Shown here in pieces: positions 3,067-46,159 of a stretch of 64,000 nucleotides of DNA. Numbering within the stretch: the first letter of the stretch is position 1; the number at the start of each line of letters is the position of its first letter. Made by a program: the position numbers and the translations under genes. The notes under the pieces were generated by a model. That model saw nothing but the letters and a program-made list of their open reading frames with translations, was not told the DNA's origin and searched no databases. Source of the DNA: Ostreococcus lucimarinus (taxonomy: Eukaryota); assembly GCA_000092065.1 (NCBI GenBank), contig CP000582.1. One strand, 5' to 3'.

Positions 3067-3428
3067 AAGAAAGCGGTTTGTGCTCGAGTTCGTGACATCG
3101 CGTAGTATTGTCAGGTGTCCCTAATTGAGAGCAAAACATGAGAAGATGCGGTTTTGCGTTGTTTTAACATCCGTACCGATTCGTCCACTACACCAGGAAC
3201 CATGTCGCGCCACGAGACTCCGTTTTTTTGAATTTGCCGACTTTCACTGCGACTGGCGAACGGTAGAGGGACCGCAGAGCGACGAAGGAGCGACGAAGGA
3301 GCGATCGTAGATCGTAGATTGCGTCCTCTGCAAGACCGCAAATGTCTTAAGGAATCGAGCTTGTGTAACGTGTTGCGATGTGAGTCGTCTGCGATTTTGA
3401 ACGGCGGGGTTCGTTTCGTTCCCAGCAC

Positions 3429-3518
3429 GGAAAAATTTATATATCGCCCCTTTAGAGAGTACCTACACACATGACGAGTCATGAACCGTGGATATATACG
3501 TATTTTACACCGTTTAGT
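3429..3518. repeat. Left terminal inverted repeat (90 nt)
   Basis: ggaaaaatttatatatcgcccctttagagagtacctacacacatgacgagtcatgaaccgtggatatatacgtattttacaccgtttagt; its reverse complement is at 4192..4279. Confidence 0.8.
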
Positions 3519-3519
3519 T

Positions 3520-4086
3520 CTAAAAGTTTGATTCTACAACATCTACGAGGTACTTACTAATGCTAATTTGCTCGCCTTTGCTTGCCTTGCGTTTGTGTTC
3601 ATCGACCATCTTCTCGTGCCAGCCCCTCTTCCTGCTCAACGCCGTATCACCCGCCGCGCCTCTCATAGGAATCGCAACCAGGTTCGACATACCGAGCACA
3701 CCATCGCCGTCCATTTTGCTATTCTTGGACATGTTTTGAGACATCTCTCTGTGTGTCTTCAAGTTGTGCATGAAACGTTGAAGTTTGTCGAGCGCGTCTG
3801 TGATGTGTGCGGCTTCATCAGGCTCGAACGTAAACTCCGGATCGAGTGCGAGTTGTATCATCTCGGTACACGATTGAACCCAGCGTGACTTTACACTCAC
3901 GTTGTCGAAAGCTGCTCCAAGGCTTCTCCGATGAGTTGGTAGAGAGGCTTCAACATTATCTGGAATCGCTGGAGTCACGTGTCTCCTGGAATCGCTGGAG
4001 TCACGTGTCTCCTGGAGCCCGGACGATACGTGAAGAGCATCACCGAACGGATCGTCGAAGGGATCATCGTCGCACTCGTCTTCCAT
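3520..4086 (-). CDS. Hypothetical acidic protein encoded inside the TIR element (188 aa; N-terminal DDDPFDDPF, C-terminal basic SRKRGWHEKMVDEHKRKASKGE)
   Basis: Longest ORF in the element core. It might be the accessory DNA-binding ORF of a Harbinger-type element, but no clear Myb/SANT motif is seen. A 26-nt tandem duplication lies within it. Confidence 0.25.
   Translation of the reverse strand: MEDECDDDPFDDPFGDALHVSSGLQETRDSSDSRRHVTPAIPDNVEASLPTHRRSLGAAFDNVSVKSRWVQSCTEMIQLALDPEFTFEPDEAAHITDALDKLQRFMHNLKTHREMSQNMSKNSKMDGDGVLGMSNLVAIPMRGAAGDTALSRKRGWHEKMVDEHKRKASKGEQISISKYLVDVVESNF
3961..4012. repeat. Tandem duplication, 2 x 26 nt (tggaatcgctggagtcacgtgtctcc)
   Basis: Exact direct repeat read in the sequence. 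Being 26 nt rather than 27, it would shift the frame of any ORF crossing it. Confidence 0.85.
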
Positions 4087-4191
4087 CCGACCATCGCCCG
4101 CACGCGCGACGACAACTGGCGCGACAGGCGTGGAAAAGACACGAGGCGAACGTGTTTTTCACCAAGGTAGGAATACTCTATTGTAGATGGC

Positions 4192-4279
4192 ACTAAACGG
4201 TGTAAAATACGTATATATCCACGGTTCATGACTCGTCATGTGTGTAGGTACTCTCTAAAGGGGCGATATAAATTTTTCC
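4192..4279. repeat. Right terminal inverted repeat (88 nt)
   Basis: Reverse complement of 3429..3518. Confidence 0.8.
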
Positions 4280-4445
4280 CCCCGAACGCGTTTTTTGAAC
4301 GCGCCGGGGTTTAGCGAAACGCGATGGCGCAACCGTCGCGTTCGCGCGCCCGCCAGTGCGCGGTGCGGCCGCGGCCGCCCGCGGGTGCGCGTGAGTAGTT
4401 CGAGGTGATTCCGACGCGTCGCGTCCGCACGTCGTCGCGCGCCGA

Positions 4446-6239
4446 ATGCCTCGCACGTGCGTGTGCACGAACCCGAACTGCGACAAAGATGTCGAGCGAT
4501 TCGCGTTCCAACTCGGCAAGCACTGGAAAGACGACGTGCTCAAATCGATTCTATCGAGTCTCAGACCCGGAGCGGATGCTGATGACGTAGAAAAATACTT
4601 TTTGCGCGCGATGACGAAGCCCGATGGTGTTCGAGTGTCCTCGCAGCACTTCTTCTGGTACCATTTAGCATGGTCTCGAGGAGACCGCCCGAAGCTGGTC
4701 TTCAAAGATGGCGCGCACGTCCGGCCGACGTACATGCTCCATTCGAATCGGCCGACGTACGCGGGCGAACGAATCGTCGATCCGGCTCGTGTAGAATGTT
4801 TATCACCGCGCGAGACGCGTCTGCGCGTGAAGGCGCCGGCACGGGCGCCCCTTTCAGAGATTTCAAATTTGAATGAGGACGACGTGCATGCGACACAAGC
4901 TGGTGTCAGAGTTGGGATTAAACGGCGACGATCTGCTCCTGCGGCAATTTGCTCGCACAATCGCGCGCAAAACATGTCTTTGAACTCGTTTGAACGGGGA
5001 AGGCCGGGGGAAGAGACGTGCCGCGTGCAAGAAGGGACTATCCACAAGTTACGCTGTGATGAGTTGAAGTTGAGCGAGGCGCTGCGGGAAGAGCGTCAGC
5101 ACGCAGACGACGCGCGCGAGGACGTTCGTTTGCTCACGGAAGAACTTGAACGTATTCAAGAAGAAATGCACGACCAGGATCGAAAATCCTCGTTCGTAAC
5201 TATGCGATACTTGCGGGCGACGAGAGCTAGTGATAAGCAAATCAAAGCGCTTACTGGGTGGCCAACTTTGAAAACATTCGATGCTTTGTGGCGTTTCGTC
5301 AACGCGGGCGACCGCAATGCGACGCAAAACTTGTCGATTGTCAAACGAAAATGGAGGGGCGATTCGACGAGCGCGACGGGTTCGCATGGAACGGTCGTTC
5401 CGCGGAAAAAGAGCTTCAAATGGGAAGATGTATTTTTGGCGTGGTGGATGAGAGCGAAGATGGACTTGACCGCGGATCAACTTGCATACTTCGTCGGAAT
5501 ACACAAATCGACGCTTACACGTGCGCTACATCAAATGACATCATTTTTAACGGTTTTTATACGTGCTTACGGTGGCGACCCGATCGATCCCGAATGGATC
5601 CAGATGACAACAGGGGAGGATTGGAAAGAAGCATACGGGCAGAAACCTTATGAGATTATCGACGTGACTGAAGTGCCCATGGAGACTCCAGATGACCCAT
5701 ATATGCAGCGTTTGTTTTACAGTCATTATAAGAAGCGCTACGTGTGCAAATTTCTTGGCGCCTGTCACTCAAATTGTCTTGCCGCTTTCTGTTCAGTTGG
5801 GTTCCCTGGATCCATTTTTGACAATGAAATTTGCTTTGCTGGAAAGGATCATCCGATGCTTAATCATGCGGTACACCGAGCCAGCATCCGCCGGAGGACG
5901 TTCACAGACGAGAACGACGAAAATGTAGTCGTTCCCGAAACAATTGCAGCTGATCGTGGCTTTTGCGAAGGGTTGAATAGACAGTTTGAACGGGATGCGT
6001 TCAGGCTTGTGCACCCTGCGTTTTCAAGAGGCAAGAATGTGGCCTTCTCCAAGGAGGACATTCTCGACACCAGGGCGCAAGCATGTCGCCGAGTGCTAAT
6101 TGAAAATGCTTTCGGTCGCGTCAAGACGATTTGGAAGCGTATGCGCGGTCCAATAGCTATCTCCAAGCTGAAATCGGTGCATCAGGAGTGGCCAATAATA
6201 TTTTTCCTAGCGCTAGATTTACAAGCTTCGCTAAGGTAG
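4446..6239 (+). CDS. PIF/Harbinger-superfamily DDE transposase (DDE_Tnp_4-like), 597 aa, intronless
   Basis: C-terminal catalytic region: IIDVTEVPMETPDD (first D), YYSHYKKRYVCKF, IAADRGF (second D), LIENAFGRVKTIWKRMRG (E; Harbinger IERAFGxLKxRFRIL motif). N-terminal CxC..C zinc-finger-like stretch and an HTH-like ALTGWPTLKTFDALWRF. Preceded by an ~80% GC stretch 4280..4445. Confidence 0.7.
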   Translation: MPRTCVCTNPNCDKDVERFAFQLGKHWKDDVLKSILSSLRPGADADDVEKYFLRAMTKPDGVRVSSQHFFWYHLAWSRGDRPKLVFKDGAHVRPTYMLHSNRPTYAGERIVDPARVECLSPRETRLRVKAPARAPLSEISNLNEDDVHATQAGVRVGIKRRRSAPAAICSHNRAQNMSLNSFERGRPGEETCRVQEGTIHKLRCDELKLSEALREERQHADDAREDVRLLTEELERIQEEMHDQDRKSSFVTMRYLRATRASDKQIKALTGWPTLKTFDALWRFVNAGDRNATQNLSIVKRKWRGDSTSATGSHGTVVPRKKSFKWEDVFLAWWMRAKMDLTADQLAYFVGIHKSTLTRALHQMTSFLTVFIRAYGGDPIDPEWIQMTTGEDWKEAYGQKPYEIIDVTEVPMETPDDPYMQRLFYSHYKKRYVCKFLGACHSNCLAAFCSVGFPGSIFDNEICFAGKDHPMLNHAVHRASIRRRTFTDENDENVVVPETIAADRGFCEGLNRQFERDAFRLVHPAFSRGKNVAFSKEDILDTRAQACRRVLIENAFGRVKTIWKRMRGPIAISKLKSVHQEWPIIFFLALDLQASLR

Positions 6240-8354
6240 ATTCCGCGTCTCGCACGCGTCTGTAACCCTGTGTAAAGTACATTTGTGATTGTTCTCTTTT
6301 TCATATACGTCGAAATACTCCCTGAGAAGTGTTGATGGCTTGTTTCGCGACCACATCGCGCTTACATCAGGTGCAACTTCAGGGAGCTCCAAATCACCGT
6401 CACCGCGAGTGTCCACAGTGCATCGTCGCTTTGCGCGCCCAGCTTCGAATCGATTAAAGTCAATGTTGCTAAGAGGATTTTTGCGATTCATCGGATCCCC
6501 TTCGCCACTCGTGCCGAACCACTCACTTTCGAGCGACGTGCATGGATCAGCTGGTCGTTGCAACTTGGCAAAATACCAGAGCGCTGCGATGACATGGATG
6601 CACCCTCCGAAGTCTCCGCCCGCTCCCGCCTTGCACGCGCACGTCCCACGCTCGACACTGACGACATGGTCATGGACATGTTCATTCGTTTCTTCGTCGA
6701 TGCACCCATACTTGCATAACAAGCATACAGCGACGGCATAACGCTCTGCTTTGAGTGATGCCGGAATACCAACTCGGAACCACACGCGGAAGTGAGTTTG
6801 CATCCACGGATGCCCCACGTGCGCAAAACGAATCGGAAGGGGCGTCCGGGCGTGTATTCGTGCGTATCCTTGTCGATACGCTTTGGATCGAACCGGGTCG
6901 CCGTAAACGGACATCCCCGCGAGCCACGTCGTGATGATGTCCTCACCCATAAGCGGTGACGTCTCGCGGAAAAGCTCAACGTCAGTGCTCCACACTTCAG
7001 CATCCATTGGTGCGTCCAGATCGGGATCTAGCTCAGGGAATTGCGTCACCGGAAGATGAAAATGATGAACCAAATATGTATGAAGACTTTTCCCTTCTGG
7101 ATCCTGGACGTCGCCGTCGACGTCGATATCTAGCTCCTCGTACCGACGCTCAAGCTCCATCCTCTGTATGACCTCTGAGATGATGACATCTTTGTCCCGA
7201 ATATCCTGACATCCGCGGCGGCGATCGTTCCTACGCACGTTCAGCCAACGTATTAAATCCGATTTGGAGTTGTCCTCGACTCTCTTTTCCGGTAAAACGG
7301 CGCCTTTGATGAGATACTTGGGGATTCGTCTCGCCCGTGTTTCACCATGTCTAAAAAGGGCAGCCACTGCAACCAATTCAACGGGTTCGTGAGTATCCGC
7401 ATCGCGCAAACCTAAAGCGAATTCTTCGTTTTCTGAGTGATTTGCGTTGAATATGGTTGCGTCATTGAGCCAGCGTCTCTCTTTCGTCCGCATATCGTAC
7501 ACGATTGCTCGCTCAAAGCCCGCCAGGCTTTCCTCAAGTTTGAGAATTTGCGTGTCCTCATCACTCGCGTCGACGACGTCCTTCTTGACGAGGTATTTCA
7601 CAAAAGAGCGGATACTGAGAGTCTCTGCACTCTGTATGCACGCTACAATGGCTTTCAGAGCCGTTTGGGGTCCAAGTCCGGGAACTTTCCCCTCCCTGTA
7701 ATCACACCCGCTCGCCGCCGCCCACAAGCGCATGGCGGCGTCGCCGTGCATGCACATGAGCTCCGCAACTGTGTTCACCTCGTTCGTGTCTACCGGCATC
7801 CTCAGGTTGTTTCTGTTAAAAACGTTGCACTTTAACGTCGAAACGCTCCAAGACACCTTGTGGACGACCTTGGCGCACCCGAGCACCACTGCATCTGTGT
7901 CATCCGTCAACACGAAATCAACGAGACCACTCGACTCCATGTACTTCAACTGGTGATCTGATTCGTTTGGCGCCACGACGTACACGAATCCACGCTTCCG
8001 CACTTCATTCAGTATCCGAGGCAAATAACATCGTTCGAATTTTTCACCTATCGTACCTGCTCGCTTCGCGTGCGTCTCCTTCTTGTGTGCAGTCCTCGCA
8101 CCGTCGAAAACAAGGACTGGGAAGACACCTGCATTCACGAGCTTCGTAGCGCGCGAAATGACCGTTTCTACAGACGAATCCAGTTTATCCTGAACAGAAC
8201 CAGTTTTTCGCATCGCCCACCCCTGGTGTATCCAGATGTTTGCGTCTACCCCCGCTTTCGCGTTGGCGAACTCGCCGCCGATGGACGTGCGGACGACCGC
8301 ATCGTCGAACGCTTTCCACCCTGCGTCGACGCCCATACGCACCAGAATTTGCAA
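6231..8354 (-). CDS. XPG/Rad2-family (FEN1/EXO1-like) 5' nuclease fused to a C-terminal SWIM-type zinc finger; probable true start MGVDAGWKAF at 8336
   Basis: XPG-N: MGVDAGW...VFPVLVFDGARTAHKKETHAKR. XPG-I: VVAPNESDHQLKYM...VLTDDTDAVVLG. H3TH-like: GKVPGLGPQTALKAIV. C-terminal SWIM-like CxCxnCxH: GTCACKAGAGGDFGGCIHVIAALW. The 3' end overlaps the transposase ORF by 9 nt (convergent). Confidence 0.65.
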   Translation of the reverse strand: MQILVRMGVDAGWKAFDDAVVRTSIGGEFANAKAGVDANIWIHQGWAMRKTGSVQDKLDSSVETVISRATKLVNAGVFPVLVFDGARTAHKKETHAKRAGTIGEKFERCYLPRILNEVRKRGFVYVVAPNESDHQLKYMESSGLVDFVLTDDTDAVVLGCAKVVHKVSWSVSTLKCNVFNRNNLRMPVDTNEVNTVAELMCMHGDAAMRLWAAASGCDYREGKVPGLGPQTALKAIVACIQSAETLSIRSFVKYLVKKDVVDASDEDTQILKLEESLAGFERAIVYDMRTKERRWLNDATIFNANHSENEEFALGLRDADTHEPVELVAVAALFRHGETRARRIPKYLIKGAVLPEKRVEDNSKSDLIRWLNVRRNDRRRGCQDIRDKDVIISEVIQRMELERRYEELDIDVDGDVQDPEGKSLHTYLVHHFHLPVTQFPELDPDLDAPMDAEVWSTDVELFRETSPLMGEDIITTWLAGMSVYGDPVRSKAYRQGYARIHARTPLPIRFAHVGHPWMQTHFRVWFRVGIPASLKAERYAVAVCLLCKYGCIDEETNEHVHDHVVSVERGTCACKAGAGGDFGGCIHVIAALWYFAKLQRPADPCTSLESEWFGTSGEGDPMNRKNPLSNIDFNRFEAGRAKRRCTVDTRGDGDLELPEVAPDVSAMWSRNKPSTLLREYFDVYEKENNHKCTLHRVTDACETRNLP

Positions 8355-8671
8355 ACACGGCTACAACTCGATCAGAAATACATTTTGTCACCTGTTCATG
8401 TGCCTCCGCGATGCCCGACGCGCGTGCGCGCCACGACAGCAGCGTGAAAGTGACGGGGATGCGCGACGGGCCGAGCGAGTTCAAAAAAAGGACGAAAGGG
8501 CACCGGATTCGAGGTTTTCGTCGACAGTGGGTCATGACGAGTCACAAACGTTCGACTTAAATATGTAAAATGATAGGAAAACCTTAATGCAATGGGTCAT
8601 AATAGCTGAATATATATGGTTTCTCGTCGTAATGGACAAAAGTTGCTTTCATAAAAATAAGGATGTAGTTG

Positions 8672-8789
8672 TTACTGAGAGTGGGGTTCGAACCCACGCA
8701 GTCAATGACTACCAGAAATCTCACCAGTTTTTTCGGTGAAGCTTATTCGCACTTGAGTCTGGCCCCTTAGACCACTCGGGCATCCCAGC
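8672..8789 (-). tRNA. tRNA-Leu (anticodon CAA) with a 34-nt intron 3' of position 37; long variable arm; discriminator A73
   Basis: Minus-strand read: GCTGGGA TG CCCGAGTGGTCTAAGGGG C CCAGA CTCAAG[tgcgaataagcttcaccgaaaaaactggtgagat]T TCTGG TAGTCATTGACTGC GTGGG TTCGAAC CCCAC TCTCAGT A. The D-arm is almost identical to yeast tRNA-Leu. Anticodon stem CCAGA/TCTGG and T-stem GTGGG/CCCAC pair perfectly. The acceptor stem has two G-U pairs. A T-run (TTATTTTTA) lies downstream on the minus strand. Confidence 0.75.
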
Positions 8790-8993: not shown

Positions 8994-10454
8994 CTAATCA
9001 AAAAAGCTATGGCTGATTGCGTCTAGTGCACTGATACGATCTTCTCGTTTGGGTGTGAGTAGCGCTGTCGCAAGCGCCCATCCCGCACCTTGTGCTGCGT
9101 CAAGTAAAGCCTCTCCCCTACAGCTTGAGCTCACGACCACACGATCATGTGTTCGCCACTCACTCAGATCATAACGATGGCGAGCAACTTCGTTCTTGAA
9201 TGTTAGTAAGCGTTCAGAATCACGGAGATACGGGAAACATAGCTGTAGCATGACGATACCCACGCTGAACATGTCGAATTTTCCAGGTTGATATATTTCC
9301 CAAAGTTCACTTAAATTGTCTGCAGTTGGTTGTGGTGCAGTCGAAGGAAGCAAATATATATCATCTGCAGAGCAGTATCTAGGGTCGGCTGGTCCTTCAC
9401 CGGGAACATAGTTTTTAGGAACTCCCAAGCACTGAGCAGCGGCACCCAGGTCGATGAACACAACTCCACCTTCTTCTGAGAAAACTATATTATCTGGCTT
9501 GATGTCTCGATGTACAATACCCACCGAATGTAAACTCTCCAAATTCTTCAGAATCGAACGCAGAACGAGTTTTATCATCTCACACTCAGTTGTACTTTGT
9601 GAAAGATTGTAAGCTTTGCGAGTAATTGTTTCGAGTGTTTCAGGTTTACGCAATGCTTCCCCAAGAGTAACCGAGCCACAGTATTCCCACATTAGCCAAA
9701 GGCCAGCTGGTAGCGTACCGTTGTAGATCTGACCTTCTTGACGCTGATCTATTTCGCAACAGCCGAAGAATCGAGCACACGATCCCTTCGCCAACTTGTG
9801 AACTGCCTCGTTCAGCTCAAGCTCTGCGTCTAAGAGCTCAGTCGCACCATACACATTTCTTTTTGCACATTTTAACACGACATCTCTTTCCTTCCACGTA
9901 CCACGGAACACAGTGCCAAAACTACCTTCACCAAGTGGTCCTGATTTTGATATTCGTATATCCTCGGGCTGCACGCCAACCGTTCGACGCAAGACAGCTG
10001 GACTATTCAACCTTTCATTTCGCTTCTTTTCCCAATAAGAGGCCATGTCTTCAGATTCTATCGAAAAAGTCTCAGGTCGTGAAAACGTGAGCTTGACTTG
10101 CACACTTTTTTGAGTAGATATGAAGGAGATGATGTCGTCGAAGTACACACCACTACAACCCGTCAAAGCGACGTTGTTTATTTCAATCGCATCAATAATA
10201 TCACCCACCGAAATAATACCACAATCAGCCGCGTGACTTCTTGGAGAGATGTCGGCAACATAAGCACCCTTATCGTCGTTCTGTGGCTGCAAAATTAAGC
10301 CCAAAGGCCTCTTCAGCGTCGTTTGAAATGACTCTTGTCTTGAGGAACCGCACGTTACACGTTTTCTACCACTGGACAACTTTTTGTTTTTCAACTGTAC
10401 TTTTTTCGATGTCGCCGCATTTACAATAGCGACTAGTGCTAAGCTGCGATTCAT
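8994..10454 (-). CDS. Ser/Thr protein kinase with N-terminal PDZ-like domain
   Basis: Kinase motifs: GEGSFGTVFRG...VVLK (G-loop plus Lys), HRDIKPDNIVF (catalytic loop), IDLGAA (DFG variant). N-terminal GLILQPQNDDKGAYVADI...GDIIDAIEINNV resembles a PDZ fold. Confidence 0.7.
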   Translation of the reverse strand: MNRSLALVAIVNAATSKKVQLKNKKLSSGRKRVTCGSSRQESFQTTLKRPLGLILQPQNDDKGAYVADISPRSHAADCGIISVGDIIDAIEINNVALTGCSGVYFDDIISFISTQKSVQVKLTFSRPETFSIESEDMASYWEKKRNERLNSPAVLRRTVGVQPEDIRISKSGPLGEGSFGTVFRGTWKERDVVLKCAKRNVYGATELLDAELELNEAVHKLAKGSCARFFGCCEIDQRQEGQIYNGTLPAGLWLMWEYCGSVTLGEALRKPETLETITRKAYNLSQSTTECEMIKLVLRSILKNLESLHSVGIVHRDIKPDNIVFSEEGGVVFIDLGAAAQCLGVPKNYVPGEGPADPRYCSADDIYLLPSTAPQPTADNLSELWEIYQPGKFDMFSVGIVMLQLCFPYLRDSERLLTFKNEVARHRYDLSEWRTHDRVVVSSSCRGEALLDAAQGAGWALATALLTPKREDRISALDAISHSFFD

Positions 10455-10646: not shown

Positions 10647-13600
10647 GTGACATATGACATCGTATTACAACGTTTTACCCCCACTTCGCAAGGACCGACC
10701 ACCCCATATCCATGTGCTATAAAAGCTAACTCAAAATGGAAGCTCGTACGTCTGAAACGCTTGGCGCTCGAGCGTTTCCGATGTCCGATGTTAACGCGCC
10801 ACAAACCGGAGAGCGTTCAGAATGGTACGCCCCGAAATGAATCACGAATGAGCAATCTAGACACACGCGCTATGTCGAACCCTTACTTTCAGGTCGGGCG
10901 ATGGGACTGCACGGACGAGCTCGAGGGGTGTCAATTCTCCGCGCCACATACGTCGGTGTCAGTTCCTAATTTCGAAGAGATTCAGACCCTTCACTACACC
11001 TGCGTGTATGAAGTGGCGATCACGTGTACACAGCGGCATGATATGCATAACGATGAGTTCGCGCATGTACTTAGTTCTGTCATCGAGCTCGCAAATCGCG
11101 TTGACCTGACACGACTTAGGCAACATCACTCCATAGATAACTTTGCCACACACGTTCTCACTTTTCGGTTCATTCTGGACCTGTTGAGGCAAACTTATCA
11201 GGAATACATCAAAGGAAGCATAGAAAATAATTCGTTTGAGCATGTCGAATTTACTTTCAACAATTGCATGGATGGTACGCACGGAATGGCAACATGCTTT
11301 AAACCGAATAAAAAGCATAGTCACCTTTGTTACATTTTGGATATTTCGCAGGCAGAAAGAAGTTGCAATGGTCGTACTGATGACACAAAATGCGTGCACG
11401 ACAAAATTACTATGAACGATCGCGTTCTTTCCGCGGCTAAGATCCCAGACAACGCAGTGAATAAACAATTCAGTGCTAGTATACTCAATGATGTGTATGG
11501 TTTCGATTCAAGTCTGTTCCATATTTCTCAGTCGGAAACCCTCTGCATGGACCCACAACAACGACTATTACTTCTTGCAGCAGCAGACTTATACCTGAGT
11601 AACACACGTGTTTGTCAACACGACGACTCCTTCTGCGTGCACGTCGGTGTATCGTGGAATGACTTTGAGGAAATTCGCAGAAAGTATAGTGCAGACTTTT
11701 TCTCCACTTATGATTCGACGGGAACATCAATAAGTGTCGCATCGGGTAGAATTGCGTATTATTTTGATTTCAAAGGGTGTGCTGTGACGATTGATACGGC
11801 TTGTTCATCATCTTTGGTTGCGTTGCATCAATCCATGTACGCAGCTGGCTCGCTCCGTGAATCAAGTGCACTTGTATGTGGCATCAACTTGATTTTGACA
11901 ACCACGATGACACATCGATTTCAGCTTGCTGGAATGATGTCTTCAGAGCATCGATGTATGACATTTGATGCACGCGCGGATGGCTACGTCCGGAGTGAGG
12001 CATGCAACATCGTACTCTTACACTTCAATGGCTTCACAAAAACTCATAGGAATGTACTGCGGCATGACGTTCATATGTCATGCGTCGTCAATCAAGATGG
12101 AACATCAACTGGACTTACGGCACCTAATGGAACAGCTCAGCGGAACCTGATGAATGAGTTACTATCGGACGTTTATAACCCTTCAAAACACGTTGGTGCT
12201 AAAATACATGCCCACGGCACAGGTACGCCTCTTGGGGATCCGATAGAGGTGTTTGCTATCAATTCTGCCCTCTCGTTTTCGTCACTGTGCAGGCTGTATG
12301 TGTCAGAAAAGTCGATGCGAGGGCACACAGAACCTGCTTCAGGTCTATGCAGCACCATACTTGCTTTCGTATCAGGTGCACAGTGCAAGCTACATGGTCA
12401 ACCACATTTACAGCAGTTAAACAATCATATACTAACATCGGTTGATGAAAGTATTTTTCAGCGTTCACTGCATTCCAGTTTTCCCTTAACTTCTATGGCG
12501 AGTGTCACCACAGTAAGCTCCTTCGCGTTCCAAGGGACGAACGCAATGGCTTCACTGACATATATCGACAAATGCAGTATTAGAGTGATTCGCAACACGT
12601 CAGGTCTGAGATCTTTGGTCAAGTTGGAGACTGAATCCCCTGTAAGACTCCCGTACACATTTTCTTGCCTTAGCATCGTCAATGGGAAAATGATACAGCT
12701 AACTTCAATGATTCACGACAAAACATTGAAGCGACTTTTGGATCATCGTGTAGCTGATATGCATCTTATGCCAGCCACAGGCCATCTTGAACTTGAAAGA
12801 GAGCTCACGAAGTGCGCTCTCGTAAGGAATGAACCATATCTTCTGACAAAGATCGCATTTATGCTGCCTCTCAAGCTTGATGAAAGCAATCAACTTATCA
12901 CAGAGATGAACACACATGGTCGCTTACGCGTTGGATGTGGCTCTGGCATATCCAATTACTGGTGTAGTACTGCACGACTTCAAATACCAGTAGGACGTGC
13001 CTGGTGCACGGACCGTACTTTTTATCTGACTAGTAAACTCGTTTCTCGGCGTTTCAAAGGTGCGACCGCAACAATAGCAGGGACGACGCCAATTCTCGAT
13101 TCACAAAATGTCGTGAATCCGTGTATCCAGGATGCGAGTCTACAATGCTCTGCATACGTCTTGAACACGTCAGCTTTCGCATCTGATACAACCTACATGG
13201 ACTGCGTATCGTTACTTAAGCTACCAACAACAATTCAAGACGTCATAGTTGTTAATCAGACAGGAAAAATACTTGTTAGATCGACGCATGTTGACATGTT
13301 GCAGAAGACGCAGCATGTGACTGAAAGTAATAACTCTGTCACAAGTAACTCTTCGAGTAACAATAAAACGCAGACATGGATACATCGTTTACTGTGTAAA
13401 GTATCAACCGTACGGATGAAAGCTGGCTTACGCACTCGCACATGCTTGGAACTCGCGAGATTGTTGTACCACGCGAGACAACAAAGAGTGCTGATATCAA
13501 ATATGCAAAACTTGCGTGAAGTAGGCAGTTTACATGCTCCAGAACTGATGCCCATCATGCGCGAAATGGGTCGTAAGTCAATGCAAGATATTAATTCGGC

Positions 13601-16600
13601 TAGTGCCTCTCTTTGCGCGGTTGCGCTGCTGCAGGCTTGCGGCGCTCGTGCGCGCGTTTCCGGCGCCCACGTGCGTGCAAACGACATCGTCCACGAGGAC
13701 GCTTCGGCCGCGCCCGCAGTCTGTGGATCGTGCGTGCGCGCCACCGTGCAATCTTCCGCGCAGGAACGCAGCGAGCCATTGGTGCTGAGTGTCGCGAGCG
13801 CCCCGCACACCGCGCCAGCCCGAGCGTTGCGATCGATCGCCGCCGGGGCGTCGATCGCCGGGGCGCTGTGCGTTGAGCGGCTGCTTCCGGCGTTCGGTCG
13901 CCGGACGCCCGCCGCGTCGCGCGACGGCGCGGCGACGACCACGGCGTCGCCGGCACCGAAAGTCTCGAGCGTGTTCGTGACTGGCGGTCTGGGCGCGTTG
14001 GGTCAGACTTCGGCGGCGTGGTACGCGCATCGAGGCGTTCGCCACGCCTACTTGACTGGTCGCCGCGGGCGCGGAGAGTCCCTTCTGCTGCGATGGTCGT
14101 CGCGCGGCGGTACCGACGTGAGCGCATTGCACGTGCTTCGCGTCGACGCGTGTGCGACCGACGAGGCGTCGTACGGCGGTGCGCGCGCGCACGCGCGCGT
14201 GCGCGCACACGGCGTGCTGCACGCGGGCGGCGTGCTACGCGACTCTTTGACTGCTCGCCAATCCGCGTCGGCCCATCGATACGTGTGGTCGTCCAAAGTA
14301 GTGTCCGCGCACGCATTGCTCCGCCAGTGCGTCGGCGTCGAGCGCGGCGCGCGTCACATCGCGCTGTTCTCGTCGGTGGCGGCGCTGCTGGGGAGTCCAG
14401 GGCAATGCAACTACAGCGCGGCCAACGCCGCGCTGGACGCGCGAGCCGCACACGAGTGGTGCCGCGGGTACGCGGTGCAATCCGTGCAGTGGGGCGCGTG
14501 GGACGGCGCGGGAATGGCGCTGACAAACGCGTCTGTACTCAGGAACGCGCGCACGACAGGCATCGGCGTGCTCGATCCGCAAGCCGGGCTCGGGGCCGTA
14601 CACGTCGCGCTTCAGGGCGCATCAGTGACGGGTCGCTGGCGGGCAATCCAAGGCGTCCTGGCCGTCGTCCCGTTCCAGTGGTCCGTGCTCGCGCGCGCGC
14701 AGCGCTCGCGCGCGCTGATTGCGGAGTACCGCGCGGAGTCGGCGCGGTCGAGCGCTCCAGTCGCCGTCCATCCGGGCGCCGAGGAAGACGCGGCGCGCGA
14801 TGTGTCAGATGAGAGCGTGCGGCAGATCGTGGCCTCCGCCGTGACGCGCGCGCTCGGCAGAGACGTGTCGGTGGACGCGTCGCTCATGGAAGAGGGCCTA
14901 GACTCGCTCGCGGCGGTCGAGCTCGGAGGGGCGTTACAAAAGGAAACGGGCGTGAACATGCCGGCCACGCTGGCATTTGACTACCCGACGATCACCGCGA
15001 TATCTGGGTACCTGAAGGGTGCGATGCTGGCGCGATCGCGTGCGCGCCAATCGAGCGGCGCGGCGTCCAGCGCCGCTCGCACGCGCGCCGCGAGCGGCGC
15101 GGTCGCGCATTCGCGCGACTCGATGCCAGGTATTGCATCCAACGCGCGCGAAATCTTGGGTCTTGCGCCCGTTGTTATGGCCATCAGACGGAGCGTGCGA
15201 CGACTCGACGCGGATGATCGAGAGCCAAAGCCTGCTCGACATGGCGGCTCGGCGTTGTTTTCATCGTTCGTGAGGTGCGTCATGGCAGAGCGAGCCTCTG
15301 AAGATCGCTTCGACACGCCATCGTTGGGCAGGCAGCCGAGCGCGACAGCGCGCGTGGTCTCCTTGACGAAAGCCAGAGATTTCACTACACAAGCTCTCGA
15401 CAGCATGCCGAAATGCAACGAGATTGAGCTGAGCGTCGTCAGCGCTGTGTCGAGTAAGGCATCAGGCGCGCACGATGCCGTGCGTGTGAACAACATGCGA
15501 CATGCGTGCGGCGAAGTGTGTGATCCACAAAGCTCAAAATCGCACGAGTTCGTCGCTCGGCGTCTTGTGCAGTTTGGGTACTTCATCGAGCGCAGCTTGT
15601 TTGACGGGGAGCAGTTCTCCGTAACGGCGCACGAGGCGCGGTTGATGGACCCGCAGCAGCGCGTGCTCCTGGAGAACGCGCTCGCCGCGACGAGTGCGAC
15701 GCCGCACAGCGCGCCGAAGCCAGCCACAGCCGTGTCCGTCGGCGCTTGGACGTCTCAGTACGCAGACATGTGCCGCGTGTACGAGCCAACGCCGGGGCCG
15801 TACTCTGGCGTTGCTTCCGCCTTGAGCGTGCTGTGCGGTCGCGTATCGTACACGTTTGGTATGCGTGGCCCGTCCGTGTGTGTCGACACCGCGTGCTCCT
15901 CCTCGCTCGTGGCCGCGCATGTTGCGAGCTCTCACTTGCGCGATGGATCGTGCGAGGACGCCCTCGTCGCCGGCGTGAGCGTGAACGTCGGCATCGGCAC
16001 CTTCCTCGTGGCCACCGCCGCGAGCATGCTATCGTTCGATGGTCGGTGCAAAACCTTGGATGCCAGCGCCGACGGTTACGCCAAGGGCGAGTGCTGCGTG
16101 GTCCTGCGCGTGTCGGTGGACGGGGCGAGCGCTGGAGCGCCCAAAGCGCCCGATCTTCCAAACGCCGAGTCTCCCTCTCTCGCTCTTCTCGAACAGACCG
16201 GTGTGAACCAGGATGGACGGTCGAGCTCGCTCACCGCACCAAACGGGCCGTCGCAGCAGGCACTCGTGGCCGATGCGCTTCTCCGCTCGGGGCTGCACGG
16301 CGACGCGCTCGGCAGGCTGGAGATGCACGGCACGGGTACTTCGCTGGGAGATCCGATAGAGGTCGGCGCCGCGCTTGAGGTTCTCGCGCCGCCGACGCGC
16401 GCGGACCGGGCGCCGTCCAGGGGCCCCGCGCTCACGCTTGAGGGCGTGAAGCCACGCGCTGGCCACTGCGAACCAGGGGCTGGCGCGGTTGGGTTGCTGT
16501 TTGCGATGGCAAACTTGACGGAGCGAGCCGTCGCGTCCCTCGTCCACCTGCGCCAGCTCAACCCTCACGTCGAGGCCGCGACGCGCCGAAACGCACCGTC

Positions 16601-19600
16601 GCCGCATGCGCGCGCGCCGGTGCTCGCGCGACAAGGCATGCCGCGACCGGATGACGGCGCGTCTGAGGCTGGAGCAGCGGACGCTGCTCGAGCGCGCGTG
16701 CGGCGATCCGGCGTGAGCGGCTTCGCGTTCCAGGGCACAAACGCGCACGCAATCATGGCCCGGGGACCCGGACAGGCGACTGCGCCCGGGTACACGGGAA
16801 GCACGCACACGGCGGCGCGTGCGTGGGAGCGTCAGCGCCACTGGTGCGCGCCAGAACGGCACTGCCTCATCGAGTCCGTGCGCGCTCTGCATCCTCGCGA
16901 GGGAGACTCGAGCGCGTTGGCGCGGTCGTGCGTGCGCCTGTGTCGGTCCGCGTCGCTCGCTGGCATGCTTGATCACGCCGTCGGGCTCCGGACGCTGCTA
17001 CCAGGCACAGCGCACGTCGAGATATGTCGAGCCATGGCGGGCGCGCTGGCAGACCAGCCGCTCGCCGACATCTCGCTGTCGCACGTATCTTTTGCAGCGC
17101 CCCTCGAGCTTCGAGCGCCGACGACCGACGTGCTGTGCGACGTCACGCCGCAAGGCGTGGCCCGCGTGGGCGTGCGCGTGTCGTCGTCCTCTGCCGCCGC
17201 GCCGTTCCTCGCGGGCGCGCTCAGCCGCAGAAGCGCCTCAAGAATTACTGCGTCTCCGGCGCACCTCTCGCGAGGACCGGCGATGCCCGCGCTGGACGTG
17301 CAGCCTTGTGTTCACGGCGCGAGCTGGCTGCGCTCGTCGCAGCGACGAGGCCCGGGCGCGGAGCACCGCGTGTACGGCGACATACGCGCGCGTCAGATGT
17401 CCACGCTGTCGGCTGCGGCGTATCACTCGCCGCCCGCAGTGCTCGATGCCGCGCTGCACGCGCTCAGCGCGTGCGCGCCGCCGCCGGGTAGCGATGCGAC
17501 AGAAGAGAGCCCGCACGTCCCGGCCACGATCGGCGGCGTCCGCACGCGAGGCGGGCACTCGGACATATACCGCGCCCGGTTCGCGCTCGCGACGGCTCCG
17601 CCTGAGCGCGGGGAGCGGAACGCGTCCACGCGCAGATCTCGTCACCACCTGTGGGACTGGTCGAGTCTTTCGGCGGCGCATCGAGGGTGCGTGGTGCACG
17701 CGCTGGAGTCTCGACGACTCGGTGGCGCCGCGGTCGTGCGCTCGCGAGCACAACAGCGCTCGAGGGCACCGCCGCCGCGTCGCGCGGCCGCGCCGCGTGT
17801 GCTTTATGGAGTCGGGCAACAGCGCGCGTGCGGCGCGGCGGATGGCCAGGGCGCGCGTCGACGCTCAACCCTCAACTCGCAGTGCTTTGTGGACGACGCG
17901 TCGCACCGCCGCGAGCTGATGGAGACCCACGCGTCACCATCGATCGCGCAAGGCAGCACGCGAAGCAGCACGCGCGCCTCTCTTTGCGCGGTTGCGCTGC
18001 TGCAGGCTTGCGGCGCTCGTGCGCGCGTTTCCGGCGCCCACGTGCGTGCAAACGACATCGTCCACGAGGACGCTTCGGCCGCGCCCGCAGTCTGTGGATC
18101 GTGCGTGCGCGCCACCGTGCAGTCTTCCGCGCAGGAACGCAGCGAGCCATTGGTGCTGAGTGTCGCGAGCGCCCCGCACACCGCGCCAGCCCGAGCGTTG
18201 CGATCGATCGCCGCCGGGGCGTCGATCGCCGGGGCGCTGTGCGTTGAGCGTCTGCTTCCGACGTTCGGTCGCCGGACGCCCGCCGCGTCGCGCGACGGCG
18301 CGGCGACGACCACGGCGTCGCCGGCACCGAAAGTCTCGAGCGTGTTCGTGACTGGCGGTCTGGGCGCGTTGGGTCAGACTTCGGCGGCGTGGTACGCGCA
18401 TCGAGGCGTTCGCCACGCCTACTTGACTGGTCGCCGCGGGCGCGGAGAGTCCCTTCTGCTGCGATGGTCGTCGCGCGGCGGTACCGACGTGAGCGCATTG
18501 CACGTGCTTCGCGTCGACGCGTGTGCGACCGACGAGGCGTCGTACGGCGGTGCGCGCGCGCACGCGCGCGTGCGCGCACACGGCGTGCTGCACGCGGGCG
18601 GCGTGCTACGCGACTCTTTGACTGCTCGCCAATCCGCGTCGGCCCATCGATACGTGTGGTCGTCCAAAGTAGTGTCCGCGCACGCATTGCTCCGCCAGTG
18701 CGTCGGCGTCGAGCGCGGCGCGCGTCACATCGCGCTGTTCTCGTCGGTGGCGGCGCTGCTGGGGAGTCCAGGGCAATGCAACTACAGCGCGGCCAACGCC
18801 GCGCTGGACGCGCGAGCCGCACACGAGTGGTGCCGCGGGTACGCGGTGCAATCCGTGCAGTGGGGCGCGTGGGACGGCGCGGGAATGGCGCTGACAAACG
18901 CGTCTGTACTCAGGAACGCGCGCACGACAGGCATCGGCGTGCTCGATCCGCAAGCCGGGCTCGGGGCCGTACACGTCGCGCTTCAGGGCGCATCAGTGAC
19001 GGGTCGCTGGCGGGCAATCCAAGGCGTCCTGGCCGTCGTCCCGTTCCAGTGGTCCGTGCTCGCGCGCGCGCAGCGCTCGCGCGCGCTGATTGCGGAGTAC
19101 CGCGCGGAGTCGGCGCGGTCGAGCGCTCCAGTCGCCGTCCATCCGGGCGCCGAGGAAGACGCGGCGCGCGATGTGTCAGATGAGAGCGTGCGGCAGATCG
19201 TGGCCTCCGCCGTGACGCGCGCGCTCGGCAGAGACGTGTCGGTGGACGCGTCGCTCATGGAAGAGGGCCTAGACTCGCTCGCGGCGGTCGAGCTCGGAGG
19301 GGCGTTACAAAAGGAAACGGGCGTGAACATGCCGGCCACGCTGGCATTTGACTACCCGACGATCACCGCGATATCTGGGTACCTGAAGGGTGCGATGCTG
19401 GCGCGATCGCGTGCGCGCCAATCGAGCGGCGCGGCGTCCAGCGCCGCTCGCACGCGCGCCGCGAGCGGCGCGGTCGCGCATTCGCGACGTACAACCATTA
19501 CTCAGCTCCCTCGTCTACGTCTATCATACGTTCCGCATGAAGTCAGCCGACGAACGACTCTTGGCATTAGCGGTCAATATTCTCACGAGCTTAGACACTT

Positions 19601-45910: not shown

Positions 45911-46134
45911 GAGAATGAACCCAATCCCGTATTATAGTGGTTCTAACGCATATGTCTACACTACATGACCTAGACCTACATATAGACTTAGCGCGTATGA
46001 ATAAGCATCGGACAAGCACGCACGGCATCCATCGCGACTTATAAACCCAAGGTTTCTCAATTTAGACTTTCGCCGTTTTGCGATGGTGTATAATAAGCGT
46101 TGACAACACTATAATACAGGATTGGGTTCATCTC
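45911..46134. mobile_element. MITE-like element (about 224 bp) with about 38-bp imperfect terminal inverted repeats, lying in the promoter of the aconitase B gene
   Basis: Left TIR gagaatgaacccaatcccgtattatagtggttctaacgc (45911-45949). Reverse complement of the right TIR (46097-46134) is gagatgaacccaatcctgtattatagtgttgtcaacgc, about 33/38 identical. The core is AT-rich and non-coding. Confidence 0.55.
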
Positions 46135-46159
46135 ATGTGTCAATATCTCTCAGCCACAG

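What the first reader, a model, noticed from the sequence alone, without database searches (positions are those of the whole stretch)
4446..6239. Intact PIF/Harbinger-type DDE transposase gene adjacent to the TIR element
A 597-aa uninterrupted ORF carries the DDE_Tnp_4 hallmark motifs (IIDVTE..., YYSHYKKRY, AADRGF, IENAFGRVKTIWKRMRG) plus an N-terminal Cys-rich region and an HTH. It has no frameshifts, so it is potentially active. An about 80% GC tract lies immediately upstream (4280-4445).
Basis: partly seen in the sequence, partly recalled or inferred. Interest (0 to 1): 0.5.

Follow-up and report, generated by a model that had tools for sequence, protein, structure and literature searches.

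The report
Harbinger-like transposon with nuclease partner
The ORF is a real, intact Harbinger-superfamily transposase in a green-alga (Ostreococcus) jumping gene whose second gene is a DNA-repair-type nuclease rather than the usual DNA-binding protein, but this copy has lost one end and probably cannot move by itself.

Summary
The 597-aa ORF (4446..6239) is real and matches Pfam DDE_Tnp_4. It is one half of a two-gene DNA transposon of about 4.4 kb. The other half is a convergent gene (6231..8336, minus strand) that overlaps it by 9 bp. That gene encodes an EXO1/FEN1-type nuclease with all seven catalytic acidic residues, followed by a conserved C-terminal domain with a SWIM-like CxCx10CxH motif.

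Full-length relatives have 17-bp terminal inverted repeats (TIRs), GACCCATTGCAYTAAGG, and sit in ATA|..|TAT sites. Only a 2-bp target-site duplication (TSD), or none, fits these flanks; the Harbinger 3-bp TWA does not. The same convergent nuclease/transposase pair recurs in relatives only 25-27% identical, so the nuclease gene belongs to the element.

The host is Ostreococcus lucimarinus. Both genes are under purifying selection, a relative is transcribed, and natural populations carry occupied and empty alleles at two loci.

The window copy (4280..8598) keeps only the right TIR. Its left ~100 bp are missing. The neighbouring "TIR element" (3430..4279) is a Mutator-like element nested in the transposon's left end. 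One related contig keeps both TIRs.

Verdict: a new variant of the PIF/Harbinger-ISL2EU-Spy (PHIS) superfamily. This copy could only supply proteins in trans. The nuclease's role is inferred.

The parts
4446..6239 (+). Transposase gene of 597 aa. Layout: N-terminal Cys/His module, coiled coil (about aa 189-241), HTH-like region, then the DDE catalytic domain.
   Evidence: ORF. Pfam DDE_Tnp_4 E=4.5e-18. All five homologous clusters found are also 597 aa. dN/dS 0.19-0.35 between diverged copies.
5658..6185 (+). DDE_Tnp_4 catalytic domain (aa 405-580). Triad codons: D406 at 5661-5663, D503 at 5952-5954, E553 at 6102-6104.
   Evidence: The triad is conserved in the 25%-identical L034 transposase and invariant in alignment A1.
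4280..4445 (+). GC-rich (72%) 5' leader or promoter region of the transposase gene, internal to the element. It contains the subterminal motif TTTTTGAAC at 4292-4300, which is repeated in inverted form near the other end.
   Evidence: Homologous to positions 96-261 of the full-length element in L005.
6231..8336 (-). Partner gene of 701 aa counted from the ATG at 8336. It is convergent with the transposase gene, and the two coding ends overlap by 9 bp (6231-6239).
   Evidence: The same pair with the same 9-bp overlap occurs in the contigs that carry both genes (L001, L005, L006, L007). dN/dS 0.13-0.22.
7701..8336 (-). XPG_N plus XPG_I 5'-nuclease domain of the partner protein. All seven acidic active-site residues are present: D31, D78, E125, D127, D146, D148, D212.
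   Evidence: Pfam XPG_I 4.1e-15 and XPG_N 6.3e-12. The nearest solved relative is human Exonuclease 1, E=2.7e-12, with an alignment shown.
6594..6641 (-). SWIM-like zinc-finger signature CxCx10CxH (C566, C568, C579, H581) inside the conserved C-terminal domain of the partner protein.
   Evidence: Two Cys and the His are invariant and the third Cys is conserved in at least 90% of 13 homologues down to about 20% identity. Pfam SWIM is only sub-threshold: E=0.04-0.07, 13-14 bits against a cut-off of 19.6.
8337..8581 (.). Right subterminal non-coding region, the leader of the partner gene. It holds GTTCAAAAA (8479-8487), the inverted copy of the left subterminal motif.
8582..8598 (.). Right terminal inverted repeat (CCTTAATGCAATGGGTC). 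It is the only TIR of this copy.
   Evidence: Single match in the window. It is the homology limit shared with every related locus. It is also the exact breakpoint against the empty allele.
3430..4279 (.). Nested Mutator-like inverted-repeat element with 86-nt arms at 3433-3518 and 4192-4277 and a 188-aa ORF at 3520..4086 (minus strand). It replaces the transposon's left end in this copy.
   Evidence: In L040 the same element sits inside an otherwise complete transposon, flanked by the 9-bp duplication AACGCGTTT. A 231-bp version is in L008. Its interior is inverted in L030 at the same locus.

Best explanation
Shown: window 4280..8598 is a left-truncated copy of a two-gene cut-and-paste DNA transposon of the PIF/Harbinger-ISL2EU-Spy (PHIS) superfamily, in the nuclear genome of Ostreococcus lucimarinus. 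A complete element is about 4.4 kb and has 17-bp TIRs, GACCCATTGCAYTAAGG. It carries two convergent genes read inward from the ends. One is the 597-aa transposase (Cys/His module, coiled coil, HTH, DDE_Tnp_4). The other is a 701-aa protein made of an EXO1/FEN1-type nuclease domain plus a conserved C-terminal domain with a SWIM-like zinc finger. Elements sit in AT-rich palindromic sites (ATA|element|TAT). The O. lucimarinus subfamily descends from one copy that had taken up a Mutator-like element about 103 bp from its left tip. That composite still has both TIRs at one locus (L040). It also reached the site in the window, next to a tRNA gene. There the left TIR, about 100 bp of the left end and 61 bp of host DNA were later lost. 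The window copy therefore keeps both genes open but has only one TIR. Inferred mechanism: the DDE transposase binds the TIRs and makes the 3'-OH nicks and the strand transfer. The partner protein takes the place of the Myb-like (Harbinger) or YqaJ (ISL2EU) second protein. Its SWIM domain would supply DNA or protein contacts. Its 5'-flap/5'-exonuclease domain would cut or trim the non-transferred 5' strand, or process the gapped ends. This would be a division of labour like TnsA/TnsB in Tn7. The loss of the left end is most simply explained by recombination between two copies of the nested repeat.
For: Family assignment of both proteins.
The pair is one unit inside TIRs: full-length copies in L005 (4411 bp), L006, L010 and L048.
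The partnership is old. XPG-SWIM homologues of about 27% identity (P0114, P0116, P0127) each lie convergent to a DDE_Tnp_4 gene. L034 has 159-nt TIRs, 99% complementary, that enclose exactly these two genes. Its transposase aligns with the window's over the full length at 25% identity, E=2e-32.
Selection: dN/dS is 0.13-0.35 for both genes.
Expression: a collinear 527-aa transcript product comes from Ostreococcus sp. RCC789 (MMETSP0937).
Mobility: there are at least 10 different flanks, and dead frameshifted copies in L014-L017. Empty alleles exist at the window locus with 99.0-100% identical flanks (L020-L023) and at a second locus (L045, L051). Two family members are inserted at the identical position in opposite orientations (L047 and L048).
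Truncation: there is a single TIR match in the window, and homology starts at position 96 of the reference element. L040 shows the complete composite with the left TIR and the nested element's 9-bp TSD.
Host: BiP and STN7 kinase are exact matches to O. lucimarinus CCE9901 proteins.
Against: No function was tested. The roles of the nuclease and of the SWIM domain are inference only.
The TSD is unresolved: TA, AT or none. The window's right flank (GGGTC|ATAATAG) and one copy in L007 depart from the usual TAT. L034 shows no TSD.
The empty alleles do not match the simple pre-insertion sequence at either locus; there is a 61-bp difference here and AT-rich length variation at the second locus.
One distant XPG-SWIM homologue (P0124) has no DDE neighbour on its short contigs.
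In L044 and L050 the partner gene sits next to a piggyBac-type transposase instead, so the partnership is not exclusive.
Both AlphaFold models failed (pLDDT 35 and 39.5), so there is no structural support for the unknown domains.
Placement among PHIS groups was not tested by phylogeny.
Confidence: 0.8

Rival explanations
1. It is a classical autonomous PIF/Harbinger element that is currently able to transpose from this locus.
For: Intact DDE_Tnp_4 ORF. Right TIR present. The family has been active recently.
Against: There is no left TIR in the window, and the left ~100 bp are missing. There is no Myb/SANT ORF; the second ORF is an XPG nuclease. The symmetrical flanks ATA|..|TAT cannot be a 3-bp direct repeat.
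Confidence: 0.05
2. It is a divergent member of the ISL2EU group in which the YqaJ exonuclease gene was replaced by an XPG-type nuclease gene.
For: ISL2EU elements have a 2-bp AT TSD in an A|AT|T target, a transposase with an N-terminal zinc finger (THAP), an HTH and a DDE domain, and a second ORF that is a nuclease (PMC4482050). Here the flanks fit W-AT-[A-GACCC..GGGTC-T]-AT-W. There is an invariant N-terminal C..C..C...H module whose RVSSxHF motif recalls the THAP RVCSxHF motif; that comparison is from my own knowledge. The second ORF is a nuclease. The distant relative L034 has TIRs starting with GG.
Against: Pfam finds no THAP even at E<=10, and a profile search of solved structures finds no THAP domain. 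No YqaJ is present. The Ostreococcus TIR starts with GA. ISL2EU was reported only from animals. No phylogeny was done.
Confidence: 0.25
3. The nuclease-SWIM gene is cargo or an independent hitch-hiker, for example a captured host EXO1-like gene, and plays no part in transposition.
For: XPG-family genes are ordinary host genes. In L044 and L050 the same gene lies beside, and fused in frame with, a piggyBac-type transposase. P0124 has no DDE neighbour.
Against: Convergent pairing with DDE_Tnp_4 inside the TIRs is kept at 25-27% identity in three of the four distant relatives examined. Purifying selection on the partner is at least as strong as on the transposase. The C-terminal domain is absent from cellular EXO1 or FEN1 hits: the best cellular hits cover only the N-terminal nuclease domain. 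In the L044 fusion the catalytic D78 is replaced by V, as expected for a decaying copy hit by another transposon.
Confidence: 0.12
4. It is a domesticated, immobile host gene pair kept for a cellular function.
For: Both ORFs are intact although a TIR is lost. The same allele is common in metagenomes. Length is strictly conserved at 597 aa.
Against: The locus is empty in other members of the population, with 99.0-100% identical flanks. In one strain the transposase gene at this locus is disrupted (L019). Other copies have different flanks, TIRs and decay. dN/dS between the 99%-identical copies is about 0.6-0.9, based on very few changes.
Confidence: 0.03

Closest known systems
ISL2EU group of the PHIS superfamily (Han et al. 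2015, PMC4482050)
   Same: DDE_Tnp_4-type transposase preceded by a zinc-binding N-terminal module and an HTH. A two-gene layout in which the second gene is a nuclease. An AT-rich target with a probable 2-bp duplication. Element size of 4-5 kb.
   Different: The second gene is an XPG/EXO1-type (FEN-fold) nuclease with a SWIM-like finger, not a YqaJ (PD-(D/E)XK) exonuclease. THAP is not detectable. The TIR starts GACCC rather than GG. The host is a green alga, whereas ISL2EU was reported only from animals.
PIF/Harbinger sensu stricto
   Same: Catalytic domain family (Pfam DDE_Tnp_4; HTH_Tnp_4 in relatives). Short TIRs. A need for two ORFs. AT-rich targets.
   Different: No Myb/SANT protein. A 3-bp TWA TSD is excluded by the flank symmetry.
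AcademX transposons (Kojima 2020, PMC7165386)
   Same: A eukaryotic DDE transposon that carries an XPG-family nuclease and a Cys-rich zinc finger. The authors likewise speculate that the nuclease acts in processing transposition intermediates.
   Different: In AcademX the nuclease is fused to an Academ-type transposase in one large protein and the TSD is 3-4 bp. Here the nuclease is a separate, convergent gene, and the transposase is of the unrelated DDE_Tnp_4 (IS5/Harbinger) type.
Spy group of PHIS
   Same: Insertion into the centre of an AT-rich palindrome. A no-TSD reading is not excluded here, and L034 shows none.
   Different: Spy targets AAA|TTT. No nuclease partner is mentioned for it in the parts of the PHIS survey read here.
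Tn7 TnsA/TnsB (a functional analogy only; from my own knowledge)
   Same: A DDE transposase paired with a separate nuclease that could cut the 5' strand, giving full excision.
   Different: TnsA has a restriction-enzyme fold, is bacterial and is experimentally proven. Nothing was tested here.

Membership tests
PHIS superfamily (PIF/Harbinger, ISL2EU, Spy and allies) | Transposase with an IS5/Harbinger-type DDE domain (Pfam DDE_Tnp_4) | tested here: met
   E=4.5e-18, 65.8 bits against a cut-off of 24.8. D406, D503 and E553 are conserved.
PHIS superfamily (PIF/Harbinger, ISL2EU, Spy and allies) | Terminal inverted repeats bounding the element | tested here: met
   The family has 17-bp TIRs, and the distant relative L034 has 159-nt TIRs. 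The window copy itself has only the right one.
PIF/Harbinger sensu stricto | 3-bp TWA target-site duplication | tested here: not met
   The flanks are ATA|GACCC..GGGTC|TAT in L005, L006, L010 and L040. Only an even-length duplication, or none, can be a direct repeat there.
PIF/Harbinger sensu stricto | Second ORF encoding a Myb/SANT DNA-binding protein | tested here: not met
   The only second ORF inside the element hits XPG_N and XPG_I and has no Myb/SANT hit.
ISL2EU | 2-bp AT duplication in an A|AT|T target | tested here: inconclusive
   The flanks fit either TA (TIR starting GACCC) or AT (TIR starting AGACCC). The one clean right junction with an empty allele reads GGGTC|AT. No copy has both junctions plus a matching empty site.
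ISL2EU | THAP domain at the N-terminus of the transposase | tested here: inconclusive
   An invariant C5, C7, C12 ... H68 pattern is present. Pfam gives no THAP hit at E<=10, and the search of solved structures gives none. The structure model was unusable.
ISL2EU | Second ORF with a YqaJ exonuclease domain | tested here: not met
   The second ORF is XPG/EXO1-like.
Spy | No TSD, and insertion into AAATTT | tested here: inconclusive
   The target consensus is WATA|TATW, not AAATTT. Absence of a TSD can be neither shown nor excluded.
AcademX | [quoted passage not shown] | tested here: not met
   The nuclease is a separate 701-aa protein, and the transposase is DDE_Tnp_4. Features are as described in PMC7165386.
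XPG/Rad2/FEN1/EXO1 5'-nuclease family (partner protein) | XPG_N and XPG_I regions with the seven conserved acidic metal-binding residues | tested here: met
   Both Pfam domains score above their cut-offs. The alignment to human EXO1 covers six of the residues; D212 (SGCDY) corresponds to EXO1 D225 by motif, which is my own knowledge.
SWIM zinc finger (partner protein) | CxCxnCxH signature recognised by the Pfam SWIM model | tested here: inconclusive
   The signature is conserved across 13 homologues. The Pfam score of 13-14 bits is below the cut-off of 19.6, and only 4 of 12 members hit.
Mutator-like elements (the nested inverted-repeat element) | Long TIRs and a 9-bp TSD (known features of the superfamily; from my own knowledge) | tested here: met
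   86-nt arms. A 9-bp duplication, AACGCGTTT, in L040. No transposase was identified, so this is a structural assignment only.

The most novel reading that the evidence does not exclude
This would be a previously undescribed lineage of the Harbinger/ISL2EU superfamily in which transposition needs a heteromeric machine. A DDE transposase would handle the 3' ends, and a dedicated FEN1/EXO1-fold nuclease with a SWIM finger would cut or resect the 5' strand. That would make it a eukaryotic counterpart of Tn7 TnsA/TnsB. Together with ISL2EU (YqaJ) and AcademX (XPG), it would be a third independent case of a eukaryotic DDE transposon recruiting a 5' nuclease. The lineage is still moving in wild Ostreococcus populations.
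Probability: 0.3. Interest if true: 0.7.

Novelty: new variant of a known kind. Interest (0 to 1): 0.5.

Why it matters
How IS5/Harbinger-type transposases deal with the second DNA strand, and why they need a second protein, is poorly understood. An element that pairs such a transposase with an intact flap/exo-nuclease offers a directly testable model: transposase with or without the partner, and nuclease-dead mutants. The pairing has lasted through deep divergence, down to 25% protein identity.

It also matters for Ostreococcus biology. These 13-Mb genomes hold few transposons, yet this family shows presence/absence, inversion and rearrangement polymorphism in natural populations. At one site three kinds of transposon are stacked on one another. 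This makes the family a marker, and probably a driver, of structural variation.

For annotation, the pair is currently unnamed or mislabelled in public sources. The transposase is called 'coiled-coil protein SlyX' or 'hypothetical', and the partner is called 'exonuclease-1' or "5'-3' exonuclease". A survey of PHIS elements that screened this very genome lists no family from it.

Tried and rejected
- AlphaFold2 on the partner's C-terminal half and on the whole transposase gave pLDDT 35 and 39.5, because only 4-6 sequences were allowed in the alignments. I ran no fold search, since the matches would be meaningless.
- THAP detection failed with Pfam at E<=10 on three N-termini and with profile searches of solved structures.
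- A profile of the partner's C-terminal domain found nothing among solved structures.
- A scan of viral contigs found no relatives, so there is no sign of a viral origin.
- Word-indexed protein searches found only 5 transposase clusters, even with a profile. The exhaustive search was therefore spent on the partner protein.
- I first thought the composite 3430..8598 might move without a left TIR, because the same kind of junction occurs with another right flank (L001, L002, L008). I rejected this once L040 showed that locus keeps the left TIR upstream of the nested element.
- A 3-bp or 4-bp TSD was rejected on flank symmetry.
- An exact TSD from empty sites failed at both loci. Here the left junction is deleted. 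At the second locus the AT-rich site varies in length.
- The bacterial promoter/terminator scan is irrelevant for a eukaryote.
- ARAGORN missed the intron-containing tRNA that Rfam found.
Full report
**Observation.** The ORF at 4446..6239 (+, 597 aa, ATG to stop) exists as described. Pfam assigns DDE_Tnp_4 at E=4.5e-18, 65.8 bits against a cut-off of 24.8, over aa 405-580. Three of the four quoted motifs are exact. The fourth reads FYSHYKKRY. The catalytic triad is D406/D503/E553. The tract at 4280-4445 is 72% GC, not 80%. The inverted repeat next to it is real: 86-nt arms at 3433-3518 and 4192-4277, 97% complementary.

**Host and setting.** The surrounding ORFs are eukaryotic housekeeping genes: a cyclin, BiP/Hsp70, an AP-mu subunit, Ndc80 and a WD40 protein. 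BiP and the STN7-like kinase are residue-for-residue identical to Ostreococcus lucimarinus CCE9901 proteins ABO94474.1 and ABO94720.1, on a record of 895,087 bp. From memory, that size and the low GC (42-50%) fit the low-GC outlier part of chromosome 2. I did not verify this.

**The unit is a two-gene transposon.**
- A second ORF (6231..8354; 701 aa from the ATG at 8336) converges on the transposase gene and overlaps it by 9 bp. It hits XPG_I (4.1e-15) and XPG_N (6.3e-12).
- In the related contigs that carry both genes, the same pair appears with the same 9-bp overlap. Transposase identity in these contigs ranges from 62% to 99%.
- Nucleotide homology between these loci and the window begins at 4280 and stops exactly at 8598.
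- Full-length copies in L005 (4411 bp), L006, L010 and L048 are bounded by a 17-bp TIR, GACCCATTGCAYTAAGG.
- The flanks differ from copy to copy; I count at least ten distinct sites. They nearly always read ATA|GACCC ... GGGTC|TAT.
- Because the two flanks mirror each other, a 3-bp direct repeat is impossible. Only a 2-bp duplication fits (TA, or AT if the TIR is read one base longer), or none. The Harbinger TWA signature is therefore not met.

**The partner protein.**
- Its nearest solved relative is human Exonuclease 1 (E=2.7e-12).
- All seven acidic active-site residues of the FEN1/EXO1 family are in place: D31, D78, E125, D127, D146, D148, D212.
- Its C-terminal 370 residues are more conserved than the nuclease domain.
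- This region contains CxCx10CxH (C566/C568/C579/H581), followed by a PCTSxxCxW-like motif. Two Cys and the His are invariant across 13 homologues down to about 20% identity, and the third Cys is nearly so.
- Pfam SWIM scores only 13-14 bits against a cut-off of 19.6. Nothing in the PDB resembles the domain by sequence. I therefore call it SWIM-like.

**The partnership is ancient.**
- An exhaustive HMMER search with the partner protein found full-length relatives at about 27% identity.
- Of the four I could place on contigs, three (P0114, P0116, P0127) lie convergent to a DDE_Tnp_4 gene.
- In L034 a 159-nt TIR, 99% complementary, encloses exactly these two genes in 4351 bp.
- The L034 transposase aligns with the window's from the N-terminal Cys module to the C-terminus at 25% identity, E=2e-32.
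- The nuclease gene is therefore a component of the element, not a neighbour.

**Evidence that the family is alive.**
- dN/dS between diverged copies is 0.19-0.35 for the transposase and 0.13-0.22 for the partner.
- A 527-aa product from the MMETSP0937 transcriptome (Ostreococcus sp. RCC789) is collinear with the ORF without gaps.
- Dead copies also exist: L014-L017 are frameshifted, internally deleted and lack the partner gene.
- At the window's own locus, contigs L020-L023 have flanks 99.0-100% identical to the window but lack 3430..8598. They carry 61 bp there instead.
- Contigs L018, L024-L026 and L028-L030 are occupied at this locus like the window.
- At a second locus, between a PsbP-like gene and PsaL, L045 and L051 are empty and L046, L047, L052 and L053 are occupied.
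- At that second locus a family member 88% identical to the L047 copy sits at exactly the same position in the opposite orientation in L048. This points to strong target preference.

**This copy is truncated, and the 'TIR element' is nested.**
- The window has one TIR match only, at 8582-8598. Homology to the reference element starts at its position 96.
- L040 explains why. L040 lies on a 531,739-bp contig from the same sample as L019. There the element runs from a left TIR (4849) to a right TIR (10153).
- The inverted-repeat element is inserted 103 bp from the left tip of that element, flanked by a 9-bp duplication, AACGCGTTT.
- Long arms plus a 9-bp TSD are the structural signature of Mutator-like elements. 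A 231-bp version of the repeat occurs elsewhere.
- All copies of the roughly 99%-identical class whose left end could be read carry this nested element at the same place: the window, L001, L002, L008, L030, L040, L046, L052 and L053. They therefore descend from one composite copy, which must have transposed after acquiring the insertion.
- In the window, and independently in L046/L053 and L052, the sequence beyond the nested element is something other than the transposon's left end.
- The interior of the nested element is flipped in L030 at the same locus.
- The nested repeat is thus a recurrent rearrangement breakpoint.
- The simplest account for the window is inference only. Recombination between the nested copy and a second copy 61 bp away would have deleted the left TIR, about 100 bp of the transposon and 61 bp of host DNA.
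- Consequence: both ORFs here are intact, but this copy cannot be excised by a TIR-to-TIR reaction. It can only provide proteins to other copies.

**Comparison with known systems.**
- The PHIS survey of Han et al. 2015 (PMC4482050) describes six groups. Their second ORFs are a Myb/SANT protein (Harbinger, NuwaI/II), a YqaJ exonuclease (ISL2EU) or an unknown protein (Pangu). None has an XPG nuclease.
- The closest layout is ISL2EU: a zinc-finger/HTH/DDE transposase, a nuclease second ORF and a 2-bp AT TSD. However, THAP is not detectable here, YqaJ is absent, and ISL2EU is known only from animals.
- AcademX carries an XPG nuclease, but fused to an unrelated transposase (PMC7165386).
- In the searched library, only the Academ paper combines the terms Harbinger, XPG and transposon.
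- The PHIS survey lists O. lucimarinus CCE9901 and O. tauri among the 836 genomes screened, yet names no family from them.
- I cannot check Repbase. I therefore rate this as a new variant of a known kind, not as categorically new.

**Mechanism.**
- Shown: the domain content, the intact catalytic residues in both proteins, their co-inheritance, the purifying selection and the recent mobility.
- Inferred: the DDE protein nicks and joins the 3' ends. The partner supplies DNA or protein contacts through its SWIM-like domain, and a 5'-flap or 5'-3' exonuclease activity on the non-transferred strand or the gapped product.
- This would be analogous to TnsA with TnsB in Tn7. It matches what has been speculated for YqaJ in ISL2EU and for XPG in AcademX.

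**Limits.**
- The TSD is unresolved.
- There is no phylogeny against reference PHIS transposases.
- Both structure predictions failed.
- The copy number in the source genome outside this window is unknown.

Noticed in passing
window 10647-24623: A single 4658-aa ORF with polyketide-synthase domains (ketosynthase, ketoreductase and PP-binding in the gene tables). Its middle part, about 13.5-24 kb, is 61-72% GC, against 42-50% around it. It contains a 4371-bp direct repeat; 13605-13904 equals 17976-18275 at 99%.
   Followed up: no
window 3430-4279, L030:1-496: The segment between the 86-nt inverted arms is in the opposite orientation in L030, a k127 assembly of the same locus with the same right flank. 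The nested element therefore behaves as an invertible segment in the population. Its 188-aa ORF carries a 26-bp tandem duplication at 3960-4011.
   Followed up: partly
L044:10230-14063 and L050:8360-12193: In assembly GCA_014466335.1 the partner gene of a family member is fused in frame to a complete piggyBac-type transposase. The product is 1277 aa; DDE_Tnp_1_7 scores E=1.8e-44 over aa 786-1165, followed by a C-terminal Cys-rich domain. The junction DNA reads CCCTAGAACCG, which resembles a piggyBac terminus. The XPG catalytic D78 is replaced by V. This is probably a piggyBac-like element that landed in the 3' end of the gene.
   Followed up: partly
L044-L053, about 10,060-10,150 in each locus (between the PsbP-like gene and PsaL): This is an AT-rich insertion hot spot (TTTTATAATTATTATAATATG). 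It holds, in different strains, nothing, this transposon in either orientation, Mutator-like repeat pieces, a piggyBac-like gene, and an 831-bp block ending in CCCTAG.
   Followed up: partly
window 8673-8789 (minus strand): A 117-nt tRNA gene, long enough to contain an intron, was found by Rfam (42.4 bits) but missed by ARAGORN. It lies 75 bp from the right TIR. A paralogous tRNA flank (86% identical) lies about 850 bp from the element in L040.
   Followed up: partly
L019 (reverse complement, 5036-6225), equivalent to window 4959-5218: In one strain, 260 bp of the transposase gene at this same locus are replaced by 1190 bp of GC-rich DNA containing a GAGAC repeat.
   Followed up: no
window about 45,915-46,152; L008:6177-6337 and 11397-11439: Another short element has inverted ends GAATGAACCCAATCC.... 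Separately, a repeat family has termini GACCCATAACGCGAGAAATTTCG, which share the first 7-8 bases with this transposon's TIR. That family is found as abutted ends ...TATGGGTC ATATAT GACCCAT....
   Followed up: no
L007:4422-4460: Two non-identical copies of the transposon lie tail to tail, separated by only 5 bp (TATAA).
   Followed up: no
window 3472-3483 and 8533-8544; window 3393-3410: A 12-nt string, CATGACGAGTCA, is shared by the arm of the nested element and the transposon's right subterminal region. Host DNA just left of the insertion, also present in the empty allele, contains TTTTGAACGGCGGGG, which resembles the transposon's subterminal TTTTTGAACGCGCCGGGG. Neither observation is explained.
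   Followed up: no
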